Source of the DNA: a virus
UHGV virus genome: UHGV-0385671
Strand: one strand, 5' to 3'
DNA: 42,417 bases
The notes under the pieces are model-generated. The model was given only the letters and a program-made list of their open reading frames with translations, made no database searches and had not been told where the DNA came from. Position numbers and translations under genes: made by a program. Positions 2,420 through 42,306 of the stretch are shown one piece after another (the first letter of the stretch is position 1; each line of letters begins with the position of its first letter).

Positions 2420-4483
2420 TTAATCCTTACGGTAGTGGTACGCCTCAAAACCGCCAGCGTTCAGTGGGATATCGGGCGCCCATTCGGGGTTAGTGGAGAG
2501 AAGCGCGGAAAGCGCTTTATCGTTGAAATCTTCTGTGTCAGGTGCTTCGGTGATCACCTCGTCGTGTACCGTCAGCACAATGCTGTAACCGGCATCTTCG
2601 ATAAGCGGCATGTTTCCGGCCAGAACGTCGCGGGCGGCCGCCTGGGTGACGTTCTCCACCAGCTTTCCGCCGTAGGTTTTGAGTCGTTGCCATTTACGCG
2701 AATAAGAGTTAACACCCATGTAGGTGATATTCCCTTGTTCGATAACCGGAGACGGGTAGCATACAGCGCGTCCGGATGGTAGCTGTATGCGTAGCCACGC
2801 GCCATCGCGGCGGATTTTAAGATAACCGCAATACAATGTTTTTTGCGGTGTGGCGATTGCAGTGCGGACGGTGCGCTCCAGTTCGTACCAGAAATCACAG
2901 GTCGCGGGATGCGCCCGGCGCCAGAGACGTTTAAGTGAGTCGCAGGCGATAAATACCCGTTCAGAAAGGCCGTAGGTTGACTTACGTTTAACCGATTCGC
3001 CGTACCAGCTTTTCGCCTCGCGGATAACATCGCGGGGAATGTTTGGCAGTGCAGCGTTTGCCAGCTCGTCGAGATCGAGACCGTAAACCAGTGCAAAAGT
3101 GATGAAGGCCGACACACCACCACCATAACCCAGACCGAGTTCCATGACTTTACCGATCTGACGCATGCGTTTATCAACATCATCTGGTGCAATATCAAAA
3201 GCTTTTGCATACGCCAGTTTATATAAGTCCGGACCCGTTCCGGCGTCGTACTCTCTGAATGCATTCAGTTTCCATTCTTCTCCTGCCAGCCATGACAGCA
3301 TACGGCCTTCAATGTTCGACAAGTCACTTACCACCAGTTTTTTGCCTGTTGGCGCGATAATGCAGCCACGTAACGCTGAACTGGTTAGTTCCATGATATT
3401 GTCAAACAGCAGGTCTGCACATCCGGCTTTCAGTGCTTCGATGCCTTCGTCTATTTGTTCCTGTTTTAGTGAAGGGCGGGGAAGGTTCTGGGGCTGGAAT
3501 AGCCGTCCGGCCCAGCGCCCGGTACGCGACGCCCCGCAGAACTGTAGCGTACCGCGTAAGCGCCCGTCGTGGCTTACGCCTTTCATTAGTGCCTTGTATT
3601 TACTGGTGCTGGTAGTACTGGCTTGCAGGCGGATAGCCAGCAGTTCTTTCACGGCAGATGGTAAATCGGGGTCGGCTATACGACGTTCTAGGGTACTGCG
3701 TTGCATGTCTGGTAGCTCCACACCGTAGGATTCAACGATGTGCTTAATCAACGCGTCCCGTTGTGTGGCTGCCTGCACTTCGCCATCAGTCATTTCCTGT
3801 GTACGCTTTGCCAGGCGCTTTTGCTCCTGGTCTACCGCTTCGATCGCAGCGCGCGCGAGTTGCATGTCCATGCAGACGCCCCGGTCGTTGATCTGCTGAT
3901 CACGATGCCAGAGCGCCAGCTCTGTCCCCTGATAATTCCACTTCGGCAGACGTTTATAGACTTCGCGCATTGCCTCGATATCCAGTCCGGCGTAAGCAAC
4001 AAAGCGCCGCCATTCTTCCGGGTGGGTTTTACTGGTGGCCCGACGCAGTTTGCTGTTTTTCGGGCGTGGCTTACAGAACAGCTGGATCAGCGCTTTACCT
4101 TCTTTGTCCTTCGCTTTGTCTTGCGGGACGCCTAGTACTTCGCAGAGTTCCCCCAGAGACCCCGGGAGACCGTGCGCCAGCGCCTGCACCATCGTGTCGC
4201 GCCAACGTTCGACTGGCGGTGCCAGTCGCGGCATTGCATAACGCAGAACGGTGCGGTCGAAGTGAGAGTTATGGAAATAAAGCAGGGTTTCAGGGTCTGC
4301 GATTGCTTCGTATAAGCCGTGTGGAATACCACCACCGGCAGTGATATCCCACACGTTTACTGGCCCGTCGTTGATAGCCCATGCGAAAAGCATCACTTCA
4401 ACGCCTTCGGCATACGCATGGGTACCGTTGTTGATCGGAATGTCACAATAGGTTTCCAGGTCGCCCCATAGTATATTGGACAT
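2420..4483 (-). CDS. Family A DNA polymerase with N-terminal 3'-5' exonuclease domain
   Basis: 687 aa; DnaQ-like exo motif near N-terminus (GDLETY) and PolA-like palm region; GAGGA SD 8 nt upstream of ATG. Confidence 0.9.
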
Positions 4484-10444: not shown

Positions 10445-12637
10445 ATGTCCGATAGCAAACCATGGGGAGCTACGCCTGATGAGTGGTTTCATTTCGACCT
10501 GGTATTGGGGAGAACTGATCATCTTCTCCCAGTTGTATGTAACCCCGGTGCGACCATATCCCCTGACAGTAAACTGAAAGCGCTGGGTAAGACGCCAAGT
10601 CGCTATAACCGGGACCGCCAGGTCACCGGTATTGCTCAATGGACCGGACATGTTGTTACTGAGCATGATTTTGCCCGCTGGTCGAATGAACCGGATTATG
10701 GCATCTGCGTGCGTACAGGCCATGGCTGGCTGGCGCTGGACTGCGATAGCGAAGATGAAGACATTCAGGCAGATATTCGCAAAACGCTTGTGCAACTTCT
10801 GGGGGAGTTGCCGCCGCGACGCTGGCGAGCAAACAGTAATAAGTGTCTGTATCTGCTGGCCGTTGATGGTGATTTCCGTAAGCGTATCCATCGCCTGGCG
10901 GGGGATATGGGCATTATCGAGTTGCTGGCGAACGGGCAGCAGTTCGTTGCCTGCGGTACGCACAGCAGCGGTGCGCGTATTGAATGGGACGGCGGTTTGC
11001 CGGATGAACCTCCGGCTATTACTGGTGAGCAGCTTGAAACGCTGTGGCAGCGCCTGGCTGAACAACTCCCTGTGTCGGTAACCACCGAAGCGGGCAACAC
11101 GAAGATGCGCGACCGATCAGCATTCACGCCCGGCGCGACGGATGATACAGCTGAATATCTTGATGCCAATGGCTGGACGCTGCTGGATGGCGCAAACGGT
11201 GAACGATATATCCGCTGTCCGTTTGAAGACGGCCACAGTAGCGGGGGCGACCCAACAAGTACAGTTTATTTTCCTGCGGGAACTGCGGGCTTTGAGCAGG
11301 GGCATTTTAAATGCCTACATGCCAGTTGCGCGCATCGTGATGACGGAGATTTCCTGAATGCCATCGGGATCCGCAACGACGATTTCGAAGATCTGACCAG
11401 CATCGAAGTGGCGGAACCTTTACCGCTGCCTGCTTTCGAGCGTGATAAATGGGGGCGTATCGAGGCAACCATCAGCAACGCAGCCAAAGCAGTAGTACGC
11501 CCTGATTTTGTGGACATCGATATTCGCTTTGACCAGTTCCGCGACGAAATCATGTTTGCCCCGGCAGGATCCGGACAATGGCGGGCATTCACCGATGCGG
11601 ATTATGCGCGCCTGCGCATCACGATGGAAAAGCGGGGATTTAAACCTGTTGGCCGTGAACTTATTCGCGATGTGGTGTTACTTGCAGCCGATGAACAACC
11701 ATTCGATTCAGCAATCACCTGGCTGAACGGACTGGAGTGGGATGGCGTGCCGCGCATCGAATGTTTCTACCATACGCACTTCGGTACCGCCGACACGCCT
11801 TATACCCGTGCGGTGTCTATGTACATGTGGACCGCGTTGGCGGGGAGAGTACTGGAGCCAGGCATCAAAGCGGATATGGTGCCGATCCTCGTTGGTCCGC
11901 AGGGCTGCGGTAAGTCTTCCGGAGTGGAGGCACTGAGCCCTGATCCTGCGTTTTTTACTGAAATCTCTTTTGCCGAAAAAGACGATGATCTCGCTCGAAA
12001 AATGCGTGGTCGGCTGGTGGCAGAGATTGGTGAACTGCGCGGACTTAATACCAAAGAGCTGGAGTCAATCAAAGCGTTTGTGACGCGTACTCACGAAAAC
12101 TGGATCCCGAAATACCGGGAGTTCGCCACCCAGTTTCCTCGTCGCCTGGTGTTCGTTGGTACCACCAATGAGGACGAATTCCTTGCGGACAAGACTGGTA
12201 ACCGTCGCTGGCTCCCCGTGGAAGTGTCGAAAGTCGACGTGAAAGCGATAAAAAGAGATCTCCTTTTACTTTGGGCTGAGGCTCGTGAGGTGTTTCAGCG
12301 TCTGGGGGGGATCCAGTTCCGTGAGGCTGAACAACTGGCAGCGAGTGTCCATGAACAGTACACCATCAAGGATGCTTGGCTTGAAACGGTAGAGAAATGG
12401 CTCGACACGCCAGACCTGATGACTAATGAACTTCCGCGAAATTGCGAATTTTTACGCGCAAGTGATGTTTTGCGTGATGCGATTGGGCTAAATCCTGACC
12501 GCATCGGAAAACGCGAAGAAATGCGAATTAGTAATGTTTTGCAAAATTGCGGGTATAAGCGTGCTCAAAGGCGAATTGGGGGGAAAATGACTCGAATTTT
12601 TGAGGCGGTGTCCCAACCTGTACCAGCCTCAAAATAG
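10445..12637 (+). CDS. Replication initiator: primase-polymerase N-terminal domain fused to a D5/VirE-like P-loop NTPase (helicase)
   Basis: 730 aa; Walker A VGPQGCGKSS; N-terminal region matches the bifunctional primase/polymerase pattern as I recall it; first gene of the rightward early operon after cro. Confidence 0.8.
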   Translation: MSDSKPWGATPDEWFHFDLVLGRTDHLLPVVCNPGATISPDSKLKALGKTPSRYNRDRQVTGIAQWTGHVVTEHDFARWSNEPDYGICVRTGHGWLALDCDSEDEDIQADIRKTLVQLLGELPPRRWRANSNKCLYLLAVDGDFRKRIHRLAGDMGIIELLANGQQFVACGTHSSGARIEWDGGLPDEPPAITGEQLETLWQRLAEQLPVSVTTEAGNTKMRDRSAFTPGATDDTAEYLDANGWTLLDGANGERYIRCPFEDGHSSGGDPTSTVYFPAGTAGFEQGHFKCLHASCAHRDDGDFLNAIGIRNDDFEDLTSIEVAEPLPLPAFERDKWGRIEATISNAAKAVVRPDFVDIDIRFDQFRDEIMFAPAGSGQWRAFTDADYARLRITMEKRGFKPVGRELIRDVVLLAADEQPFDSAITWLNGLEWDGVPRIECFYHTHFGTADTPYTRAVSMYMWTALAGRVLEPGIKADMVPILVGPQGCGKSSGVEALSPDPAFFTEISFAEKDDDLARKMRGRLVAEIGELRGLNTKELESIKAFVTRTHENWIPKYREFATQFPRRLVFVGTTNEDEFLADKTGNRRWLPVEVSKVDVKAIKRDLLLLWAEAREVFQRLGGIQFREAEQLAASVHEQYTIKDAWLETVEKWLDTPDLMTNELPRNCEFLRASDVLRDAIGLNPDRIGKREEMRISNVLQNCGYKRAQRRIGGKMTRIFEAVSQPVPASK

Positions 12638-29651: not shown

Positions 29652-30719
29652 ATGTCACAAAACTGGATGAGACATTTCGAGCTGCAGCTTGTGGATGGGA
29701 ACGGTCAGGGAATTGAGCTAAGTGATTTCAAAGTCACCTTTACGATCGACTGGTTCAACATCAGCAGCGCGTCCCGGGTAGGGACTATCAAAATTTATAA
29801 CCTCTCGGCAGATACTGTGAACCGAATTACCGGGCAGGAGTTTTCGAAAGTGCGTCTGATGGCGGGTTACGACGGTATCGCGCCGGAGGTGTCGGCAAGC
29901 GACGTAGTGACCGTGCGGGAGGTTGATGCGGCGGACGTGGGCCAGAGTGATGGCCGCAACTACGGACTGATTTTCAGCGGTGAAATTCGCTACTCGGTCA
30001 CAGGAAAAGACAGTCCGGTTGATTCCTACGTCCTGATTCAGGCAGCCGATACAGATCTGGCTTTTGCCACCAGTATAACCTCACAGACGCTGGCTGCCGG
30101 TTACACAGTCGCGGATGTGAACCGTGCGCTGATGAAAGACTTCGAAGCCAAAGGCGCGACCGAAGGCCTGACGCCTGAAATGCCTGCTACTGTATTCCCC
30201 CGAGGGCGGGTACTCTTTGGCATGACGCGGCATCTTATGGATAATGTAGCCGGGCAATGTGGCGCAACATGGCAATTCGTGGACGGTCAGCGCCAGATGG
30301 TGGCGAATAACGAATATGTTCACGAAGCGATTGTGCTCAACAGTGCTACCGGGCTTATTGGCATGCCGCAGCAGACTATCGGTAACGGCGTAAACGTCCG
30401 CGCGCTTATTAATCCGAACATCCGGGTTAACGGGCTCATTCAGCTGGATCAGGCTTCCGTGTATCGTATCGCGCTGTCGAACAACGATATCGCGATGGCC
30501 GGTGGGCAGATCACCGACCAGAACACGGACGGAAATATCACGCTAAGCGGCACCACATCGCAGCCTGCCAGCATCGCAACGGATGGCGTTTATATTGTGC
30601 GCGGGATTATGTACACTGGCGACACAAGGGGGCAGGCGTGGTACATGGATATGATGTGTGAAGCACGTGGCGCGGCTGATCTACTTTCGTCCTCAGCGCA
30701 GCAAAGGATTTATTCATGA
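29652..30719 (+). CDS. Putative baseplate hub-like protein
   Basis: 355 aa; GGAG SD; position between tape measure and spike. Confidence 0.5.
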   Translation: MSQNWMRHFELQLVDGNGQGIELSDFKVTFTIDWFNISSASRVGTIKIYNLSADTVNRITGQEFSKVRLMAGYDGIAPEVSASDVVTVREVDAADVGQSDGRNYGLIFSGEIRYSVTGKDSPVDSYVLIQAADTDLAFATSITSQTLAAGYTVADVNRALMKDFEAKGATEGLTPEMPATVFPRGRVLFGMTRHLMDNVAGQCGATWQFVDGQRQMVANNEYVHEAIVLNSATGLIGMPQQTIGNGVNVRALINPNIRVNGLIQLDQASVYRIALSNNDIAMAGGQITDQNTDGNITLSGTTSQPASIATDGVYIVRGIMYTGDTRGQAWYMDMMCEARGAADLLSSSAQQRIYS

Positions 30720-32373: not shown

Positions 32374-33126
32374 ATGGCAGTATCTGACCAGACCCGCAGC
32401 GGCGACCTTGCCGAAACATTCAAATCTGAACGGGAAACAACAAAGAACCAGATCCGTGTCGCCTTGCCTGGCATTATTCAGTCATTCGATCCTGATGCGG
32501 TGACGGCAGTTGTGCAGCCTGCTATCCGTTCGGTTGAAAAGGATAATGACGGCAACCGCATTACCAAAAATTACCCATTGCTGGTGGATGTGCCAGTGGT
32601 ATTCCCGCGCGGCGGAGGATGTACGCTAACGTTCCCAGTTAAAGCCGGTGATGAATGTTTGGTGATTTTTGCCGATCGTTGTATTGATTTCTGGTGGCAG
32701 AGTGGCGGGATACAGGAGTCGGTCGATGACAGAATGCATGATTTATCGGATGCGTTTTGTATTGTCGGTCCCCAGTCGCAGGCAAGGAAGATTAGCGGTA
32801 TTAATACCAGTGCCACACAGTTGCGTAGTGATGACGGCAGCACCTATTTTGAGCTTAATCCTGATATCAGGAAAATTAAAATTGTCGCTCCAGGTGGTCT
32901 TGATGTGGTTGCCCCTCTGGCTGATTTTTCTGAGAAAGTAACCATTCATGGCCTGTTAACCTGGATGGGGGGTATGGTGGGATCTGTGGTTTCTGGTGTG
33001 GCTTCAAAAATCACTGGTGCTGTTGAGTTTTTGGGGAGCGTGAAGGCTAATGGCAAGCCAATCGATGATACACACACTCATGGTGGTGTTCAGCGTGGTG
33101 GAAGCAGTACCGACGGGGTAAACTGA
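32374..33126 (+). CDS. Baseplate central spike protein (gpV / Mu gp45-like)
   Basis: TGGAG SD; 250 aa; C-terminal HTHGG; position before W-like and J-like genes. Confidence 0.6.
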   Translation: MAVSDQTRSGDLAETFKSERETTKNQIRVALPGIIQSFDPDAVTAVVQPAIRSVEKDNDGNRITKNYPLLVDVPVVFPRGGGCTLTFPVKAGDECLVIFADRCIDFWWQSGGIQESVDDRMHDLSDAFCIVGPQSQARKISGINTSATQLRSDDGSTYFELNPDIRKIKIVAPGGLDVVAPLADFSEKVTIHGLLTWMGGMVGSVVSGVASKITGAVEFLGSVKANGKPIDDTHTHGGVQRGGSSTDGVN

Positions 33127-34678: not shown

Positions 34679-35355
34679 GCAAATACACCGAACTAATCAC
34701 GAACTACCACGCCACCAAACCTAAATTTCTTGCACATGTTGATCTGATGACCCGGCCGCTTATTGATGTTGCGGCTGCGACCAGAGGGCTGATTACTGCA
34801 TTTGATATTGACTCTGCGGTTGGTGTGCAACTTGACATTCTGGGATTGTGGATCGGACGTAGCCGTGTTGTCAGCCAGCCTATCTCAGGTGTCTATTTCA
34901 GCTGGGATACCGACGGGCTTGGATATGATCAGGGTGTATGGCAGGGACCATACGATCCTGATTCAGGATACATGTATCTCAGCGATGAAACTTATCGTGT
35001 CATTCTTAAAGCGAAGATTGCGATTAATAACTGGGACGGACGGAATGATTCGCTTCCGGCAATTCTTGACGCGGCAACAGCAGGATCCGGGGTACGAATG
35101 CAGATAGTCGATAACCAGGACATGACGATATCGGTCTGGGTCTTTCCTGATACTGATATTTCAGATGTATCGCATGAGTTAATTGCGGCAATTAAACAGG
35201 GGTATCTCACAGTAAAAGCCGCCGGGGTATGGGCGGGTGGCATTGAAACACCTTCGGTGGAAACCCCATCGGAAGGTTCAAAATTTTTTGGTTTTGATAT
35301 GGATAACGAATTCATCAGTGGTTTTGATGTAGGGGCATGGGGAGTATTACTCTGA
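34675..35355 (+). CDS. Tail protein, YmfQ/DUF2313-like (Mu gp48-like)
   Basis: 226 aa; ATGA overlaps; position. Confidence 0.55.
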
Positions 35356-36452
35356 TGGCAAAAAATGACTTTAAAGCATTCGCAACGGGTAAAAATGCCA
35401 ATGTTATGTCGCAGGAGGAATGGGAAGCGTTGCCTGCGCTTTTATCCGGATTTACAGCAGGGAAAGCATCCAGTGCGCAAGTCAATAAGGTTATTCGACA
35501 GGCCAGCTTTATTGCATCTGCAATGGCACAATATACAGCAAATGAAAGTGGACTGGATGTACAGGACGATGGCGATCAGGCCGGCTTTATCGCAAAAATG
35601 TCGTCTGCATTAGATAAGAACTATCAGAGAATTAATGCCATACTTACCGCACTTGCTAATCTTTCAGCATCCGAAAACAAATTACCGTATTTTACCAATC
35701 AAGATACCGCTAATTTGGCTGACCTGACACAGGTTGGGCGAGATATTTTGGCAAAAAGCTCTGTTGCTGATGTCCTTAAATATCTTGGTTTGGAAAATAA
35801 TTCGACCTTTCCTGTAGGTGCCCCGATCCCGTGGCCATCAGATACAGTTCCATCTGGTTATGCTCTGATGCAGGGACAGACTTTTGACAAGTCTGCATAC
35901 CCGAAACTTGCAGCCGCTTATCCGTCAGGCGTGATCCCTGATATGCGTGGCTGGACGATTAAGGGCAAGCCCGCCAGTGGTCGTGCCGTATTGTCTCAGG
36001 AACAGGACGGCATTAAATCGCACACCCACAGCGCCAGTGCTTCAGATACAGATTTAGGGACAAAAAACACATCATCGTTTGATTATGGAACTAAATCTAC
36101 GAATAACACTGGTGCGCATACCCATAGCGTTAGCGGAACAGCAGCTTCAGCAGGTGCACATACGCATCCGATATCTCAGGGGGATAATGCTAACGTTAGC
36201 TCCGGTAGAGTAGCTTCGTCGAACTCTGCTCAAACTCACTTAGGTGCAACGAATTCTGCTGGCGCGCATACCCACTCAGTATCAGGTACCGCAGCAAGTG
36301 CTGGGGCGCATACACATACTGTCGCTATTGGTGCACATACGCACTTTGTTGCGATTGGTTCACATGGACACACCATCACCGTTAACGCTGCTGGTAACGC
36401 GGAAAACACCGTCAAAAACATCGCATTTAACTATATTGTGAGGCTTGCATAA
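35355..36452 (+). CDS. Tail fibre protein with C-terminal His-x-His repeat tip (StfE-like)
   Basis: GGGGAG SD 9 nt upstream of ATG 35355; six HxH motifs (GAHTHS x4, GAHTHF, GSHGHT); followed by tfa. Confidence 0.75.
36111..36317 (+). repeat. Two copies of a 19-codon segment encoding identical [19 protein letters not shown] with 13 of 19 codons synonymously different
   Basis: Copy 1 at 36111..36167, copy 2 at 36261..36317; includes AGC/TCA serine codon-family switches. Confidence 0.7.
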
Positions 36453-37024
36453 TGGCATTCAGAATGAGTGAACAATCACGGACCATAAAAATTTATAATC
36501 TGCTGTCCGGAACTAATGAATTTATTGGTGAAGGTGATGCATATATTCCACCCCATACAGGGCTGCCTGCAAACAGTACCGATATTGCACCGCCAGATAT
36601 TCCGGCTGGCTTCGTGGCTGTTTTCAACAGTGATGAGGCATTGTGGCATCTCGTTGAAGACCATCGGGGAAAAACCGTCTATGACGTGGCTTCCGGCGAC
36701 GCGTTATTTATTTCTGAACTTGGCCCATTACCGGAAAACGTCACCTGGTTGTCGCCGGATGGGGAGTTTCAGAAGTGGAACGGCACAGCCTGGGTGAAAG
36801 ATGCAGAAGGAGAAAAACTGTTCCGGATCCGGGAGGCGGAAGAGAAAAAGGCAAGATTAATCCAGGAAGCGACTGATAACATAACAATTCTGCAGGATGC
36901 TGTTAATTTTGAAATGGCAACTGATGAGGAAGTATCGATGCTATCTTCCTGGAAAAAATACCGGGTATTAGTGAGTCGGATTGATATAAATACAGCTCCG
37001 GATATTGTATGGCCAGAGCTGTGA
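36452..37024 (+). CDS. tfa: Tail fibre assembly protein (Tfa; e14 TfaE-like)
   Basis: N-terminus [61 protein letters not shown] matches my recollection of E. coli e14 TfaE. Confidence 0.85.
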
Positions 37025-37034
37025 TTAAACGGAA

Positions 37035-37580
37035 TTATGTGTGAGATGAGTTATAAATAATTTCAGAGTGAAATTTAGTAATGAATGTGGAGTCATCAGG
37101 AATGTCATGCAGTACCAATGCATGAGCTCCTATTTTTACATCATTCCCTATATGCACTTTGCCACCAAGGATGGTGGCGTTACAGCCAATGGTTACATTA
37201 TTTCCTATGACAATATCCATATCATTAAATTCACCGCGAAGTCCAATAGTTACTCCAGGCTTAATTGAACAATTTTCACCTATTGTAACTTTGTGACCGA
37301 TAACAACGCCATTGAGATAAGATATGTCAAACCCTTTACCAATATTTACAGTTAAGGGAACGGTTACATTGTATTTATCAAGAATGAAACGTTCTATTTT
37401 TCCCGCAATCTTCCGACAGTATCCGCCTTTATCAAAAAGGTATTTGGCTATGCGCCACCAAAATAAATAACGTAATCTTCTGTGTTTTATTGCGCGAACA
37501 ATTGCTTTTCGCCAGGAGAAAGGGCGTTTATAACCTATTACTTCATAGTGTATACACTTTTTAAGTTCACTAATATTCAT
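37035..37580 (-). CDS. Left-handed beta-helix (hexapeptide-repeat) acetyltransferase, WcaB/serine acetyltransferase-like; candidate surface-polysaccharide modifier
   Basis: Tandem hexapeptide repeats (VVIGHKVTIGENCSIKPGVTIG..., IVIGNNVTIGCNATILGGKVHIGNDVKIGAHALV); AT-rich; convergent with tfa. Confidence 0.7.
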   Translation of the reverse strand: MNISELKKCIHYEVIGYKRPFSWRKAIVRAIKHRRLRYLFWWRIAKYLFDKGGYCRKIAGKIERFILDKYNVTVPLTVNIGKGFDISYLNGVVIGHKVTIGENCSIKPGVTIGLRGEFNDMDIVIGNNVTIGCNATILGGKVHIGNDVKIGAHALVLHDIPDDSTFITKFHSEIIYNSSHT

Positions 37581-39014: not shown

Positions 39015-39317
39015 ATTGCTGTATTACTATGAAAATAAATGTGTTTTTATTTGATCTCACACATATCACAATTAATACAGCGTTTAGTAATTAGTAAAGA
39101 CATTTCAATGAATTACCGTTAAATCATTTTAAAATCAGTAAGTTGTATCGAGTTTGTATGCTTTACTGTCATTAACTTACTGTATGTTGATCCAGTGTAT
39201 TTAACCTTGATAAACTCAGTCCAGCAACACAAAACCGCAACACATTACATTTTGTCCCGTAGAAAAGACTTGTATGTGTGAGCTTGTTTTCTGCGCCTAC
39301 GCAGATAAGGATTGAGA

Positions 39318-40715
39318 ATGCCGCGCACTGTAACACATAATCCGGATAGCCCCAATAATGACGATGTTTTAGCCGCATCTGAAAAATGGGACGCCTGTAA
39401 ACCCCCCTATACCAGCGCACACATGAAAATCTGTGTTGCTGCCGCCAAAATCATCCTCGCTGCTTCCGGTGTGGCTCGCCGTTCCAAATACGAAAAAGAG
39501 AACTATCTCCGTATCGATTTCAGCAAAGCCGGTAAGGTTACATTTTACGCCGAGTTTCCAAAAAAGATGGGCCTCAAAGGTAAAAAGCTCGGCGAGTGGC
39601 CGGAGCTCGCTATCCAGCTGGCGCGCGAAAAAGCGCTAGGTATGGCTGACGGTGGCCTGCGGGCAGAGTCCGTACATGCAGCGCTGGAAATGTACCGGGA
39701 TGACCTCAAAGCCAAAGTCGCACGGCAGAAGCTGAGCCCGGACAGTTTCACAACCTACGGGGTGCGTATAGACCGGATTAAAGCAACGTTCGGCGAGCGC
39801 GAGGTGTTCAGCGACGTAACATACAATCGGCTGGTGGAAGTGCTGGACGAGTGGATCGCCACTCGCTCGAACAATAACGCCCTGGAGTTGTTTGCCGAGC
39901 TCCGTCGGTTCTGGAAGTTCTGCGCACCTACTCTTTGCAACGGCCGCAATGTTGCCGCCAGTCTGCCAGATGATTATGTTTCCTCCCGCGTACAGAAACC
40001 TACCCCCACACGGCTTTTTACCGATATTGAATCAATCGCCCGACTCTGGCTCAATGTTGCTGCCTGCGCCTCTGTACACCAGAAGAATGCTGTTCGCTTC
40101 ATGATCATCACTGGCGTTCGTCCGATTAATGTCCATAACCTGCGCTGGGACTACGTTCACGAGGAGGCTGGTGAAATTGTTTATCCGGAAGGGGTTATCG
40201 GCATGCGAGGGGCTATGAAAACACAAAAGGCTTTCCGCCTGCCGATAACGCCTGAGATCCGGCGGATTATCGACGAGCAGAAAGCCTGGCGTGATTCAGT
40301 TCCTGAGTGCAATAGGGATTATGTATTTTTGCAGCCACGTGATCCAATGCAGCCATTTTCAAAACGATCACTGGATAAGCTAGTGAAAACATACAGCCCG
40401 GACGGGGCTGTAAAAGGAATAAAACATGATGGGACTGTTAAAGGGAAAGACGGTGCATTTAATACTATGTGCCGTAAATTCCTTAAGAGCAATGTTATTG
40501 CCTTGATGAAGGAAAGAGGCTATTCCCGCTCAGACCGAAGGGAAATCAGCCTCCTTTGCCTTCATCACTCCAGCAAGTCAGATGACCCGATGGCAGAACA
40601 TTACGACTTTTCTGATGAGATTTTACAGGAAGAGATTGCGTTGAAGCGCGAAGCTTTCGAAGCTCACGAGCGGAGCATACTTGCGCAGGTGGCATTGCTA
40701 CGACGGCGAGGTTAA
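39318..40715 (+). CDS. int: Tyrosine integrase (P4-like family)
   Basis: AAGGA SD upstream of ATG 39318; catalytic-region motifs TGVRPINVHNLRWDYV, MKTQKAFRLPI, LCLHHSSKS, EHYDFS. Confidence 0.8.
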   Translation: MPRTVTHNPDSPNNDDVLAASEKWDACKPPYTSAHMKICVAAAKIILAASGVARRSKYEKENYLRIDFSKAGKVTFYAEFPKKMGLKGKKLGEWPELAIQLAREKALGMADGGLRAESVHAALEMYRDDLKAKVARQKLSPDSFTTYGVRIDRIKATFGEREVFSDVTYNRLVEVLDEWIATRSNNNALELFAELRRFWKFCAPTLCNGRNVAASLPDDYVSSRVQKPTPTRLFTDIESIARLWLNVAACASVHQKNAVRFMIITGVRPINVHNLRWDYVHEEAGEIVYPEGVIGMRGAMKTQKAFRLPITPEIRRIIDEQKAWRDSVPECNRDYVFLQPRDPMQPFSKRSLDKLVKTYSPDGAVKGIKHDGTVKGKDGAFNTMCRKFLKSNVIALMKERGYSRSDRREISLLCLHHSSKSDDPMAEHYDFSDEILQEEIALKREAFEAHERSILAQVALLRRRG

Positions 40716-40912
40716 TACCGGCTGCGACACTTTTGAATAAAAGCGTCTACATTGCGGCGCTCATAACGAACTACTTTTGCACTGAAACGAATTGGTGCCA
40801 GGATAGCCCGATGACGATGCTTAATATTCCACTCACATAGCGTTTTCTGTGTAATACCTAACTTTTGGCATACTTCATCCGGGGTGAGTAAATCGTCGGG
40901 TTTCTCGCTCAT
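40712..40912 (-). CDS. AlpA-family HTH protein (likely excisionase/regulator)
   Basis: 66 aa; LTPDEVCQKLGITQKTLCEW and VVRYERRNVDAFI pattern; 4-nt overlaps with the helicase gene and convergent with int. Confidence 0.7.
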   Translation of the reverse strand: MSEKPDDLLTPDEVCQKLGITQKTLCEWNIKHRHRAILAPIRFSAKVVRYERRNVDAFIQKCRSRY

Positions 40913-42306
40913 GCTATACCTCTCTTTTTCATGGCATCGAGCAGGATGTCCTGCACTGTTCGTTTTGAGTTGCGCCGCTCCATCACCATTTCGTCCATAG
41001 TGTCGGCAGCAATAATGTGGTGAATAAATACCGGACGATTGTGTCCGGCCTGTATCTGCCTGGTGGGGCCGATACGTTCAATAATTTGCTGATATTGCTC
41101 CAGGTCCCACCAGTGTGAGAAAAATACCAGTATATTCCCGCCGTCCTGCATGTTCAGGCCGTGGCCCGCGCTGGCTGGGTGTGCAAAGAGAACAGGAATC
41201 TTTCCGGAATTCCAGTCGCGCAGTGTCTGTGGATCCTGGTCGAGGTGACGACCGCGAGGGAATGCTTTAAGCAAGCGTTCAAGATCGTGTTTCCAGTGAT
41301 AAGCAACCAGCACAGGTGCGCCAGCTGCTTCGGTCAGTATGCTGTCCAGCGCCTGTAGTTTGGTGTCATGCAGTTCTGACCAACTTCCGGTGTCGTCTGT
41401 GTATACTGCGCCACTGGCGATTTGAAGACACTTCAGTGTCTTTGCCGCGGCGTTCGGTGCTTCGATACCTTCGCCATTCAGCTCGAGGAACATTTCCTTT
41501 TCCATTTCACGATACTGCTGACGGGCCTTCGGCGGCATATCCACGCGGATTACGTTATGGATGGGGTCTTTGATATCGAACCAGTCGGCCGCATCCAGCG
41601 AGAGGGTCACATCGGCTAATGCTCGCTGTATTTCACCCTGTGAGTGAGCAAAAGGCTCCAGTTTAGTCCAGCTCTGTCCCGGAAACTGTATCGAGTTGAA
41701 CCAGCGTGAGGTAAACGCGCCGTAAGTGCGCCCGAGACGTTGCCCTTGGTCCACAAACCACGATTGTCCCCACAAATCTACCAGGCCGTTCGGTGCTGGC
41801 GTACCGGTGAGATTTATCCAGCGCCGGACATACTTATGCGCCACTTTGCCCAGCGCCGCCGCGCGCTTACCACCACCTCGCAGCCGGAAGGATTTTAGCC
41901 GGGTGCTTTCATCTGGAATGACAATACCGAACGGCCATCGTTCTCCCAATTCTTCAACCAGCCAGACAAGGTTATCGTAGTTGATGGTGAACACGCTTGC
42001 GTTGCTGTTCGCCAGCGCCGTAGAGCGCGCTTTGGCATTACCAACAATCGGCTGCACCTCGATATTGCGCAAATGCCCCCACTTCACTGCTTCATCCGGC
42101 CAGGTGTTTGCTGCAACACGTAGCGGCGCGAGGACCAGTGCGGGGCGTGTTTCTGCCCCTGCCATAAAAAGATCTTCCAGCGCAGTGAGCGTTGCCACGG
42201 TTTTACCCATTCCCATGCCTGCCCAGATGTTGCAGCGCATAATGTCGATTTGATGATTGATGATGAGATCTTGGTAGGGGTGAGGTGAAAATATAGCATA
42301 GTCCAT
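40909..42306 (-). CDS. SNF2-family helicase (superfamily 2 ATPase)
   Basis: Walker A GMGMGKT, DEAD-like box IPDEST, C-terminal helicase motifs; GGAGATA SD upstream of ATG 42306. Confidence 0.8.
   Translation of the reverse strand: MDYAIFSPHPYQDLIINHQIDIMRCNIWAGMGMGKTVATLTALEDLFMAGAETRPALVLAPLRVAANTWPDEAVKWGHLRNIEVQPIVGNAKARSTALANSNASVFTINYDNLVWLVEELGERWPFGIVIPDESTRLKSFRLRGGGKRAAALGKVAHKYVRRWINLTGTPAPNGLVDLWGQSWFVDQGQRLGRTYGAFTSRWFNSIQFPGQSWTKLEPFAHSQGEIQRALADVTLSLDAADWFDIKDPIHNVIRVDMPPKARQQYREMEKEMFLELNGEGIEAPNAAAKTLKCLQIASGAVYTDDTGSWSELHDTKLQALDSILTEAAGAPVLVAYHWKHDLERLLKAFPRGRHLDQDPQTLRDWNSGKIPVLFAHPASAGHGLNMQDGGNILVFFSHWWDLEQYQQIIERIGPTRQIQAGHNRPVFIHHIIAADTMDEMVMERRNSKRTVQDILLDAMKKRGIA

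What the first reader, a model, noticed from the sequence alone, without database searches (positions are those of the whole stretch)
36111..36317. Tail-fibre tip repeats identical in protein but scrambled in codons
The 19-residue segment [19 protein letters not shown] occurs twice with 13 of 19 codons synonymously different, including serine codon-family switches. HxH repeats coordinate metal ions in T4 gp37-type fibre tips. The pattern implies strong purifying selection on the protein together with divergence, possibly selected to suppress recombination between DNA repeats.
Basis: partly seen in the sequence, partly recalled or inferred. Interest (0 to 1): 0.45.

Follow-up and report, generated by a model that had tools for sequence, protein, structure and literature searches.

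The report
Two arms of tail-fibre needle
The two identical 19-residue segments are the outgoing and returning arms of the iron-binding needle of a T4 gp37 / lambda Stf-type tail-fibre tip, flanking its variable receptor-binding head; their different codons reflect an old duplication shared by the whole family, so the feature is real but ordinary.

Summary
[19 protein letters not shown] occurs at 36111-36167 and 36261-36317 in the fibre gene 35337..36452. Thirteen of 19 codons differ, including three Ser AGY/TCN switches.

The C-terminal 223 residues are a close homologue of the solved T4 gp37 tip (2XGF, E 9e-88). All seven iron-binding HxH motifs align. Copy 1 ends the outgoing stem arm and copy 2 begins the returning arm. 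The 31 residues between them are the receptor-binding head, which falls into at least 15 unalignable types in relatives.

The scrambling is not specific to this gene:
- In 54 distinct relatives the arms share only 2-10 of 19 codons, and none has near-identical DNA.
- The identical-codon count (6) equals the random-draw expectation (6.0).
- Arms within one gene are no more codon-divergent than arms from different genes (0.41 versus 0.36).
- The same arm compared between head types is equally diverged (67% nucleotide identity).
- Arm A uses AGY and arm B TCN at residue 8 from T4 to lambdoid phages.

This fits an ancient duplication under strong purifying selection, carried in old arm-head-arm cassettes. 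Perfect identity here needs one Ala-to-Thr change from the common 18/19 state. Selection against recombination gets no support, but is not excluded.

The parts
35337..36452 (+). Tail-fibre gene (371 aa from the ATG at 35337). The ATG at 35355 is the more likely start (365 aa): it forms a TGATG overlap with the stop of the upstream gene, and GGGGAG lies 10 nt upstream.
   Evidence: Pfam Collar and Phage_fiber
35337..35780 (+). N-terminal part (about 148 aa) specific to this prophage type, presumably the baseplate attachment. Similarity to the lambdoid Stf cassette starts only at about nt 474 of the gene.
   Evidence: matches begin at query 474-490; inference for function
35817..35960 (+). Collar domain (PF07484, aa 161-208), equivalent to T4 gp37 domain D10.
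   Evidence: PMC6957217
36021..36029 (+). HxH motif 1 (H229/H231, aligned to T4 H883/H885), the start of the outgoing stem arm.
36111..36167 (+). Arm module A (copy 1, aa 259-277), carrying HxH motifs 2 and 3. It aligns to T4 gp37 913-931, the end of the first stem segment. G267 aligns to the essential G921, and H275/H277 to the essential iron ligands H929/H931.
36168..36260 (+). Hypervariable head, 31 aa ([31 protein letters not shown]). It aligns to the T4 tip subdomain 932-959 plus residues 960-963, and is the presumed receptor-binding surface.
36261..36317 (+). Arm module B (copy 2, aa 309-327), carrying HxH motifs 4 and 5. It aligns to T4 gp37 964-982, in the returning stem segment. G309 aligns to the essential G964, and V315 to the core residue F970.
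36318..36449 (+). Rest of the returning arm (HxH 6 at 36336-36344, HxH 7 at 36363-36371) and the conserved C-terminal collar strand. Codons are nearly identical to those of relatives (pS 0.12).
36452..37024 (+). Tail-fibre assembly chaperone Tfa (PF02413 Caudo_TAP), directly downstream as in lambda stf-tfa and T4 37-38.

Best explanation
The gene encodes a short tail fibre whose C-terminal 223 residues form a T4 gp37 / lambda Stf-type receptor-binding tip. By homology the trimer forms a collar and then a thin needle. Each chain runs out along the needle (HxH 1-3), forms the small distal head that contacts the receptor, and runs back (HxH 4-7). Each HxH motif from the three chains provides six histidines around one iron ion, giving seven ions in all.

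The two identical 19-mers are the last two 14-residue GxHxH units of the outgoing arm (A) and the first two of the returning arm (B). They are old paralogues: a duplication of the 14-residue fibre repeat that predates the split of the T-even, lambdoid, P1-like and 9g-like fibres. Tight packing around the metal sites (Gly, small residues, His) keeps both arms close to one consensus, while synonymous sites have drifted to saturation.

Arms and head travel together as old arm-head-arm cassettes. These cassettes are swapped between phages by recombination in the much less diverged flanks. The perfect 19/19 identity in this window is the end of a continuous range (10-19/19). It is one Ala-to-Thr (GCA to ACA) change away from the common 18/19 state.

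Shown here: homology, motif alignment, codon statistics and the family-wide pattern. Inferred: iron binding, trimer geometry and receptor binding in this particular protein.
For: -: phmmer hit to 2XGF, E 9e-88, aa 149-371 against chain 20-242, with all seven HxH motifs aligned; 68% identity to T4 gp37.
[quoted passage not shown] There are seven iron atoms. H929, H931, G921 and G964 are essential. G921 contacts F970 and G964 contacts H929 of neighbouring subunits.
- Collar, Phage_fiber (14-residue repeat) and Caudo_TAP in the next gene.
- every relative with this layout has arm A, a variable head of 30-51 aa (15 types) and arm B. A-B amino-acid identity is 10-19/19, identical codons 2-10/19, nucleotide identity at most 44/57, and shared runs at most 12 nt, across 54 distinct cassettes.
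- observed codon identity and pS equal the random-draw expectation.
- at arm residue 8, A uses AGY and B uses TCN in 11 of 12 lambdoid head types and also in T4, KMB22 and 9g. Thr (ACT) intermediates are seen at residue 6 in T-even phages.
- among head types, pS is 0.76 in A and 0.59 in B, against 0.29 in the left flank and 0.14 in the right flank. Within one head type the arms are 98% identical in DNA; between types they are 67% (A) and 76% (B) identical.
- arm B residue 18 is Ala in 12 of 15 types and Thr here.
Against: - No experiment or structure exists for this protein. Metal binding and trimer geometry rest on homology.
- An ancient duplication cannot be formally separated from convergence of two arms onto one structural consensus.
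- Saturation makes dating impossible.
- The within-gene versus between-gene test cannot detect selection for DNA divergence that acted before the family radiated.
- Within-gene A-B amino-acid identity is slightly higher than between genes (14.87 versus 13.83, permutation P 0.0008). Pure independent drift under a common constraint does not predict this. It hints at co-evolution of the arms or at old inter-arm conversions (L002-type arm B and L009-type arm A carry the other arm's Ser codon families).
Confidence: 0.8

Rival explanations
1. The codon differences are maintained by selection against homologous recombination between the two arms. DNA-identical direct repeats 150 bp apart would delete the receptor-binding head.
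For: No cassette among 54 has arms with more than 77% nucleotide identity or a shared run above 12 nt. From general knowledge, that is below the roughly 20-30 bp usually needed for efficient RecA-type exchange. A deletion between the arms would remove the head, which is essential for receptor binding in T4 (PMC6957217). Two lineages show the other arm's Ser codon families, so inter-arm exchange may have happened and then been followed by renewed divergence.
Against: Codon identity (6/19) equals the random expectation (6.0) and is not below it. Within-gene arm pairs are, if anything, slightly more alike in codons than between-gene pairs (0.406 versus 0.358; P for avoidance 0.95). The same arm in different head types, which cannot recombine intragenically, is equally scrambled (A-A 0.43 codon identity and 67% nucleotide identity). 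Neutral saturation is therefore sufficient.
Confidence: 0.1
2. The two copies were brought together recently by recombination between two diverged fibre genes (mosaic assembly). On this view the codon differences reflect divergence between two parental phages rather than between paralogues.
For: Arm A of the window is closest to arm A of the L007/L008 type (50-51/57 nt). Arm B is closest to arm B of the L009 type (51/57 nt). The arms therefore have different nearest relatives, and the region is clearly mosaic.
Against: Both arms are present in every family member with this layout, including T4. Each window arm resembles the same arm in other genes, not the opposite one (AA 50-51 and BB 51, against AB/BA 31-44). 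The A = AGY, B = TCN signature is family-wide. Horizontal exchange has reshuffled pre-existing paralogous arms; it did not create the repeat.
Confidence: 0.07
3. The two arms have no common origin as a 19-residue unit. They converged on the same sequence because both line the same metal-binding core.
For: The sequence is built from Gly, Ala, Ser, Thr and His under strong packing constraint. Residue 7 of both arms covaries. Ser codon families differ between the arms.
Against: The whole stem is visibly built from one 14-residue repeat recognised by Pfam PF03335, and unit numbers vary by duplication. Repeat duplication is therefore the simpler origin. Convergence to 18-19 of 19 residues would be extreme.
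Confidence: 0.03

Closest known systems
T4 gp37 long-tail-fibre receptor-binding tip (PDB 2XGF; domains D10 collar and D11 needle)
   Same: 68% identical over 216-223 residues. Shared features are the collar, seven aligned HxH motifs, essential Gly and His positions, a head inserted between two stem arms, the conserved C-terminal strand, and a chaperone gene directly downstream.
   Different: Here the tip sits on a 371-aa fibre with an unrelated roughly 150-aa N-terminus, instead of the 1026-aa gp37. The head sequence is unrelated. The two arms are 19/19 identical here, against 10/19 in T4. The chaperone is a lambda Tfa-type protein (PF02413).
Lambda Stf and the Rac/Qin prophage StfR/StfQ side tail fibres with Tfa
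   Same: The C-terminal cassette is shared at the DNA level (84-94% in the flanks) and is found in 4332 of 5426 complete E. coli genomes. The arm-head-arm layout and the Tfa gene are the same.
   Different: The head type differs: this one occurs in only 14 of those genomes at full length. Lambda has one more FDYG unit and one more HxH unit. The N-terminal shaft is far shorter here.
T-even gp38 adhesins: conserved glycine-rich motifs separating hypervariable segments (PMC3157838)
   Same: The design logic is the same: short conserved structural motifs frame hypervariable receptor-binding segments, and recombination swaps the segments.
   Different: The protein is unrelated and has no HxH metal sites. 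This is an analogy only.
Tetart et al. 1996 and 1998 (J Mol Biol; listed in the references of PMC3157838): the T4 gene 37 'His box' motifs
   Same: These concern the same GxHxH repeats. As I recall, and not verified here because the papers are not held, recombination between these motifs produced duplications that widened T4 host range, and was proposed to shuffle adhesin segments.
   Different: That work stresses recombination at the motifs. The present data show that the motifs' DNA is too diverged for efficient homologous exchange within or between cassettes.

Membership tests
T4 gp37 / lambda Stf-type receptor-binding tip | Sequence homology across collar (D10) and needle (D11) to the solved gp37 tip | tested here: met
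   2XGF, E 9e-88, 298 bits, aa 149-371 against chain 20-242; 68.2% identity to T4.
T4 gp37 / lambda Stf-type receptor-binding tip | Seven HxH motifs in register with the iron-binding histidines of gp37 | tested here: met
   HxH at aa 229, 261, 275, 311, 325, 334 and 343; each aligns to a T4 HxH. H275/H277 correspond to H929/H931.
T4 gp37 / lambda Stf-type receptor-binding tip | Variable head inserted between an outgoing and a returning stem arm | tested here: met
   heads of 30-51 aa in 15 unalignable types lie between conserved arms. This matches the T4 tip 932-959.
T4 gp37 / lambda Stf-type receptor-binding tip | Dedicated assembly chaperone gene directly downstream | tested here: met
   36452..37024 is Caudo_TAP PF02413, E 2.4e-37.
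T4 gp37 / lambda Stf-type receptor-binding tip | Homotrimer with octahedral Fe(II) sites formed by six histidines | not testable with these tools
   Only monomer prediction is offered and no metal modelling. This feature is inferred from 2XGF homology.
Pfam PF07484 Phage tail collar domain | Score above the gathering threshold | tested here: met
   47.2 bits against a cut-off of 24, aa 161-208.
Pfam PF03335 Phage tail fibre repeat (14 residues) | Score above the gathering threshold | tested here: met
   31.5 bits against a cut-off of 20; best unit aa 256-269.
Repeats kept codon-divergent by selection against recombination (hypothetical class) | Codon identity between copies below the neutral (random-draw) expectation, or lower within genes than between genes | tested here: not met
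   6 observed against 6.0 expected; within-gene 0.406 against between-gene 0.358, P(avoidance) 0.95.

The most novel reading that the evidence does not exclude
The two needle arms co-evolve at the protein level without sharing DNA, and their DNA is kept non-recombinogenic because exchange between them would delete the receptor-binding head. The evidence for co-evolution is that residue 7 covaries as V/V, L/L and I/I, and that within-gene arm identity exceeds between-gene identity. On this reading, occasional inter-arm conversions (L002-type and L009-type cassettes) are followed by selected re-divergence.
Probability: 0.1. Interest if true: 0.45.

Novelty: already known. Interest (0 to 1): 0.17.

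Why it matters
The finding mainly serves as a clean annotation. The fibre of this E. coli prophage carries a gp37/Stf-type iron-binding needle with a rare head variant. The head (aa 278-308) is therefore the place to look for host specificity, and the arms are the natural junctions for engineering head swaps.

The codon analysis adds a small general point. In this very common cassette the conserved His-box arms belong to the old, deeply diverged part together with the head. The truly exchangeable homology lies outside them, in the collar and the C-terminal strand with tfa. Ser codon families (AGY versus TCN) are a slow marker that still tells arm A from arm B across T-even and lambdoid phages.

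Tried and rejected
- Bartual et al. 2010 (the 2XGF paper) could not be read by DOI or by PMC id. Structural facts were taken from PMC6957217 and PMC11705849 instead.
- A search for 'His boxes' found nothing in the held library. The Tetart papers are cited only through reference lists, and their content is from memory.
- Rfam found nothing in the window and there are no tRNAs. The minus-strand ORF 36236..36421 is a shadow of the repetitive coding strand.
- Structure prediction was not run. Only monomers can be folded, and a 68%-identical crystal structure exists.
- The within-gene versus between-gene codon test was run specifically to find a signature of recombination avoidance. None was found.
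- A first version of the flank-identity script failed on short loci and was rerun. The left-flank identity is lowered by register shifts in types with two FDYG units, so the codon-aligned values are used instead.

Full report
**Observation.** The ORF 35337..36452 (+) encodes a 371-aa protein. The peptide [19 protein letters not shown] occurs at aa 259-277 (nt 36111-36167) and aa 309-327 (nt 36261-36317). Thirteen of 19 codons differ, all synonymously, and 19 of 57 nucleotides differ. Three serines switch between the AGY and TCN families. At the DNA level only the short GxHxH-coding units are detectable as repeats, at 72-89% identity.

**What the gene is.**
- Pfam finds a phage tail collar domain (aa 161-208) and the 14-residue phage fibre repeat.
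- The next gene (36452..37024) is a lambda-type tail-fibre assembly protein.
- Upstream lie a gpV-like spike with an apex motif, baseplate J and DUF2612 genes.
- The window is an E. coli prophage or phage, 100% identical over this stretch to E. coli S1-IND-01-A.
- From about nt 474 of the gene onward, the DNA is the widespread Stf C-terminal cassette of lambda, Rac and Qin. That cassette is present in 4332 of 5426 complete E. coli genomes, while the full-length gene occurs in only 14.
- Residues 149-371 match the crystallised receptor-binding tip of T4 gp37 (2XGF) with E 9e-88 and about 68% identity, and all seven HxH motifs are in register.

**Structural reading by homology.**
- In T4 the collar is residues 811-881 plus 1010-1026.
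- The needle is an insertion into the collar. Its stem consists of residues 882-931 and 960-1009.
- Seven iron atoms lie along the needle.
- H929 and H931 are essential, as are G921 (which contacts the core residue F970 of another chain) and G964 (which contacts H929 of a neighbour) (PMC6957217; PMC11705849).

From the alignment, window copy 1 corresponds to T4 913-931: G267 = G921 and H275/H277 = H929/H931. Copy 2 corresponds to T4 964-982: G309 = G964 and V315 = F970. The 31 residues between them correspond to the tip subdomain. The two 'repeats' are thus the end of the outgoing arm and the start of the returning arm of one metal-stapled stem, either side of the receptor-binding head. Iron binding and trimer geometry in this protein are inferred, not shown.

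**Family comparison.** I collected 176 loci from annotated phages, E. coli genomes, IMG/VR and GTDB genomes.
- 115 fibre genes have the two-arm layout. They give 54 distinct cassettes and 15 head types of 30-51 aa that cannot be aligned with each other.
- Arm-to-arm amino-acid identity within a gene ranges from 10/19 (T4) through 13 (lambda) and 14 (K-12 StfR) to 18 in several types, and 19 only in the window type.
- In every case the arms share only 2-10 codons, at most 44/57 nucleotides, and runs of at most 12 nt.
- In the window type, arm B carries Thr (ACA) at residue 18 where 12 of 15 types have Ala (GCN). That single change makes the two arms identical.

**Is the scrambling special?** It is not.
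- Drawing codons independently from the codon usage of these genes gives 5.8-6.0 identical codons out of 19; 6 are observed.
- Nei-Gojobori pS between the window arms is 0.80, against 0.79 +/- 0.13 for random draws.
- Codon identity at same-residue sites is 0.406 for arms within a gene and 0.358 for arm A of one gene against arm B of another. The one-sided permutation P for within-gene avoidance is 0.95 (one search gives 0.383 versus 0.358 on 12 types).
- The same arm compared between head types is nearly as scrambled: A-A 0.43 and B-B 0.52, with nucleotide identity 67% and 76%.

The data show saturation, not active avoidance.

**Age and mosaic structure.**
- At arm residue 8, arm A uses AGY and arm B uses TCN in 11 of 12 lambdoid head types, and also in T4, the T-even phage KMB22 and the siphovirus 9g.
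- At residue 6 the same split holds in the lambdoid types, and T-even phages show Thr (ACT), the one-step intermediate between the two Ser families. The Ser switches are therefore ancestral markers of the two arms, not events in this gene.
- Codon maps against the window show nearly identical codons in the collar and the last 44 codons, and a pile-up of synonymous differences in both arms.
- Among head types, pS is 0.29 in the left flank, 0.76 in arm A, 0.59 in arm B and 0.14 in the right flank.
- Within one head type the arms are 98% identical in DNA.

Arms and head therefore form old cassettes that move between phages by exchange in the younger flanks. The window's arm A is nearest to the L007/L008 type and its arm B to the L009 type, so arms can also be reassorted.

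**Mechanism and rivals.**
- *Best explanation (confidence about 0.8).* An ancient duplication of the 14-residue GxHxH fibre unit produced paralogous arms. Packing around the iron sites holds them to one consensus, and synonymous sites are saturated.
- *Recombination avoidance (about 0.1).* This is compatible with the absence of recombinogenic identity, but the tests above give it no positive support. It could only be an ancient, inherited state.
- *Recent mosaic origin of the repeat (about 0.07).* This is contradicted by both arms being present family-wide, and by each arm matching the same arm in other genes.
- *Convergence without common origin (about 0.03).* This is unparsimonious given the visible repeat architecture.

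**Residual oddities.**
- Within-gene arm amino-acid identity slightly exceeds the between-gene value (14.87 versus 13.83, P 0.0008). This is driven largely by residue 7 (V/V, L/L, I/I), and the head types are not phylogenetically independent.
- L002-type arm B carries the Ser codon families typical of arm A, and L009-type arm A is partly B-like.

These observations suggest structural co-evolution or old inter-arm conversions.

**Comparison with the known, and verdict.** The homology of T4 gene 37/38 with lambda stf/tfa, the HxH iron sites and the repeated His motifs are established knowledge. The motifs were discussed by Tetart et al. 1996 and 1998 as recombination points; those papers were not readable here and that point is recalled from memory. 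The window adds a rare head variant on an unusually short fibre. The feature is ordinary and already known in kind.

Noticed in passing
L102-L112, L136 (genome-contig hits): Lambda-type stf genes (the same 68% match as lambda itself) turn up in assemblies of Chromatium, Leeuwenhoekiella, Pseudomonas, Shewanella, Paenibacillus, Kitasatospora, Desulfosporosinus and others. Several sit on low-coverage contigs of about 48.4-48.5 kb. This looks like lambda DNA contamination of those assemblies.
   Followed up: no
window 35337-36452; L098 9472-10116: In the 100%-identical E. coli S1-IND-01-A prophage, PGAP annotates this fibre as a pseudogene 'missing N-terminus', and the spike gene there is split by IS2. 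In the window the spike ORF 32374..33126 is intact and the fibre ORF is complete, so the pseudogene call is probably an annotation artefact of the unusually short fibre.
   Followed up: partly
window 35337-35357: The ATG at 35355 overlaps the upstream stop (TGATG) and has GGGGAG 10 nt upstream. It is a more likely start than the ATG at 35337.
   Followed up: partly
window 36020-36375 and relatives: The number of 10-residue [FY]DYG units plus HxH units before the head equals the number of HxH units after the head in most tails. It is 1+3 = 4 in 41 distinct tails including the window, and 2+3 = 5 in the lambda type. The two arms of the needle therefore lengthen in step.
   Followed up: partly
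window 36129-36131 and 36279-36281 (residue 7 of each arm): Residue 7 of arm A and arm B covaries across head types: V/V six times, L/L four, I/L two, V/L one, and I/I in L119. In T4 the arm-B residue is the core residue F970. This could be structural coupling or shared ancestry.
   Followed up: partly
L002/L003 arm B; L009 arm A: These two cassette types carry the Ser codon families of the opposite arm, which suggests old conversion or replacement events between arms.
   Followed up: partly
window 37035-37580 (-): A hexapeptide-repeat acetyltransferase lies directly after tfa on the opposite strand. The P1-like phage JL22 (sacF) and phage 613R2 have the same arrangement. It may be a surface-modifying lysogenic-conversion gene that travels with the fibre cassette.
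   Followed up: no
window 2420-4483 (-), 10445-12637 (+), 29652-30719 (+), 39312-40715 (+), 40909-42306 (-): The element encodes its own family A DNA polymerase, a VapE-type primase/helicase, a weak sub-threshold match to the E217 gp41 baseplate hub (23 bits, cut-off 27), an integrase and an SNF2-type helicase. That is an uncommon replication module for a temperate E. coli myovirus-like prophage. IMG/VR holds contigs of about 40.4-40.7 kb of the same type (L014, L015).
   Followed up: no
window 33090-33126 (end of spike ORF 32374..33126): The spike protein ends with a THTH motif inside the Pfam GpV Apex match, a second HxH-type metal site in the same tail module.
   Followed up: no
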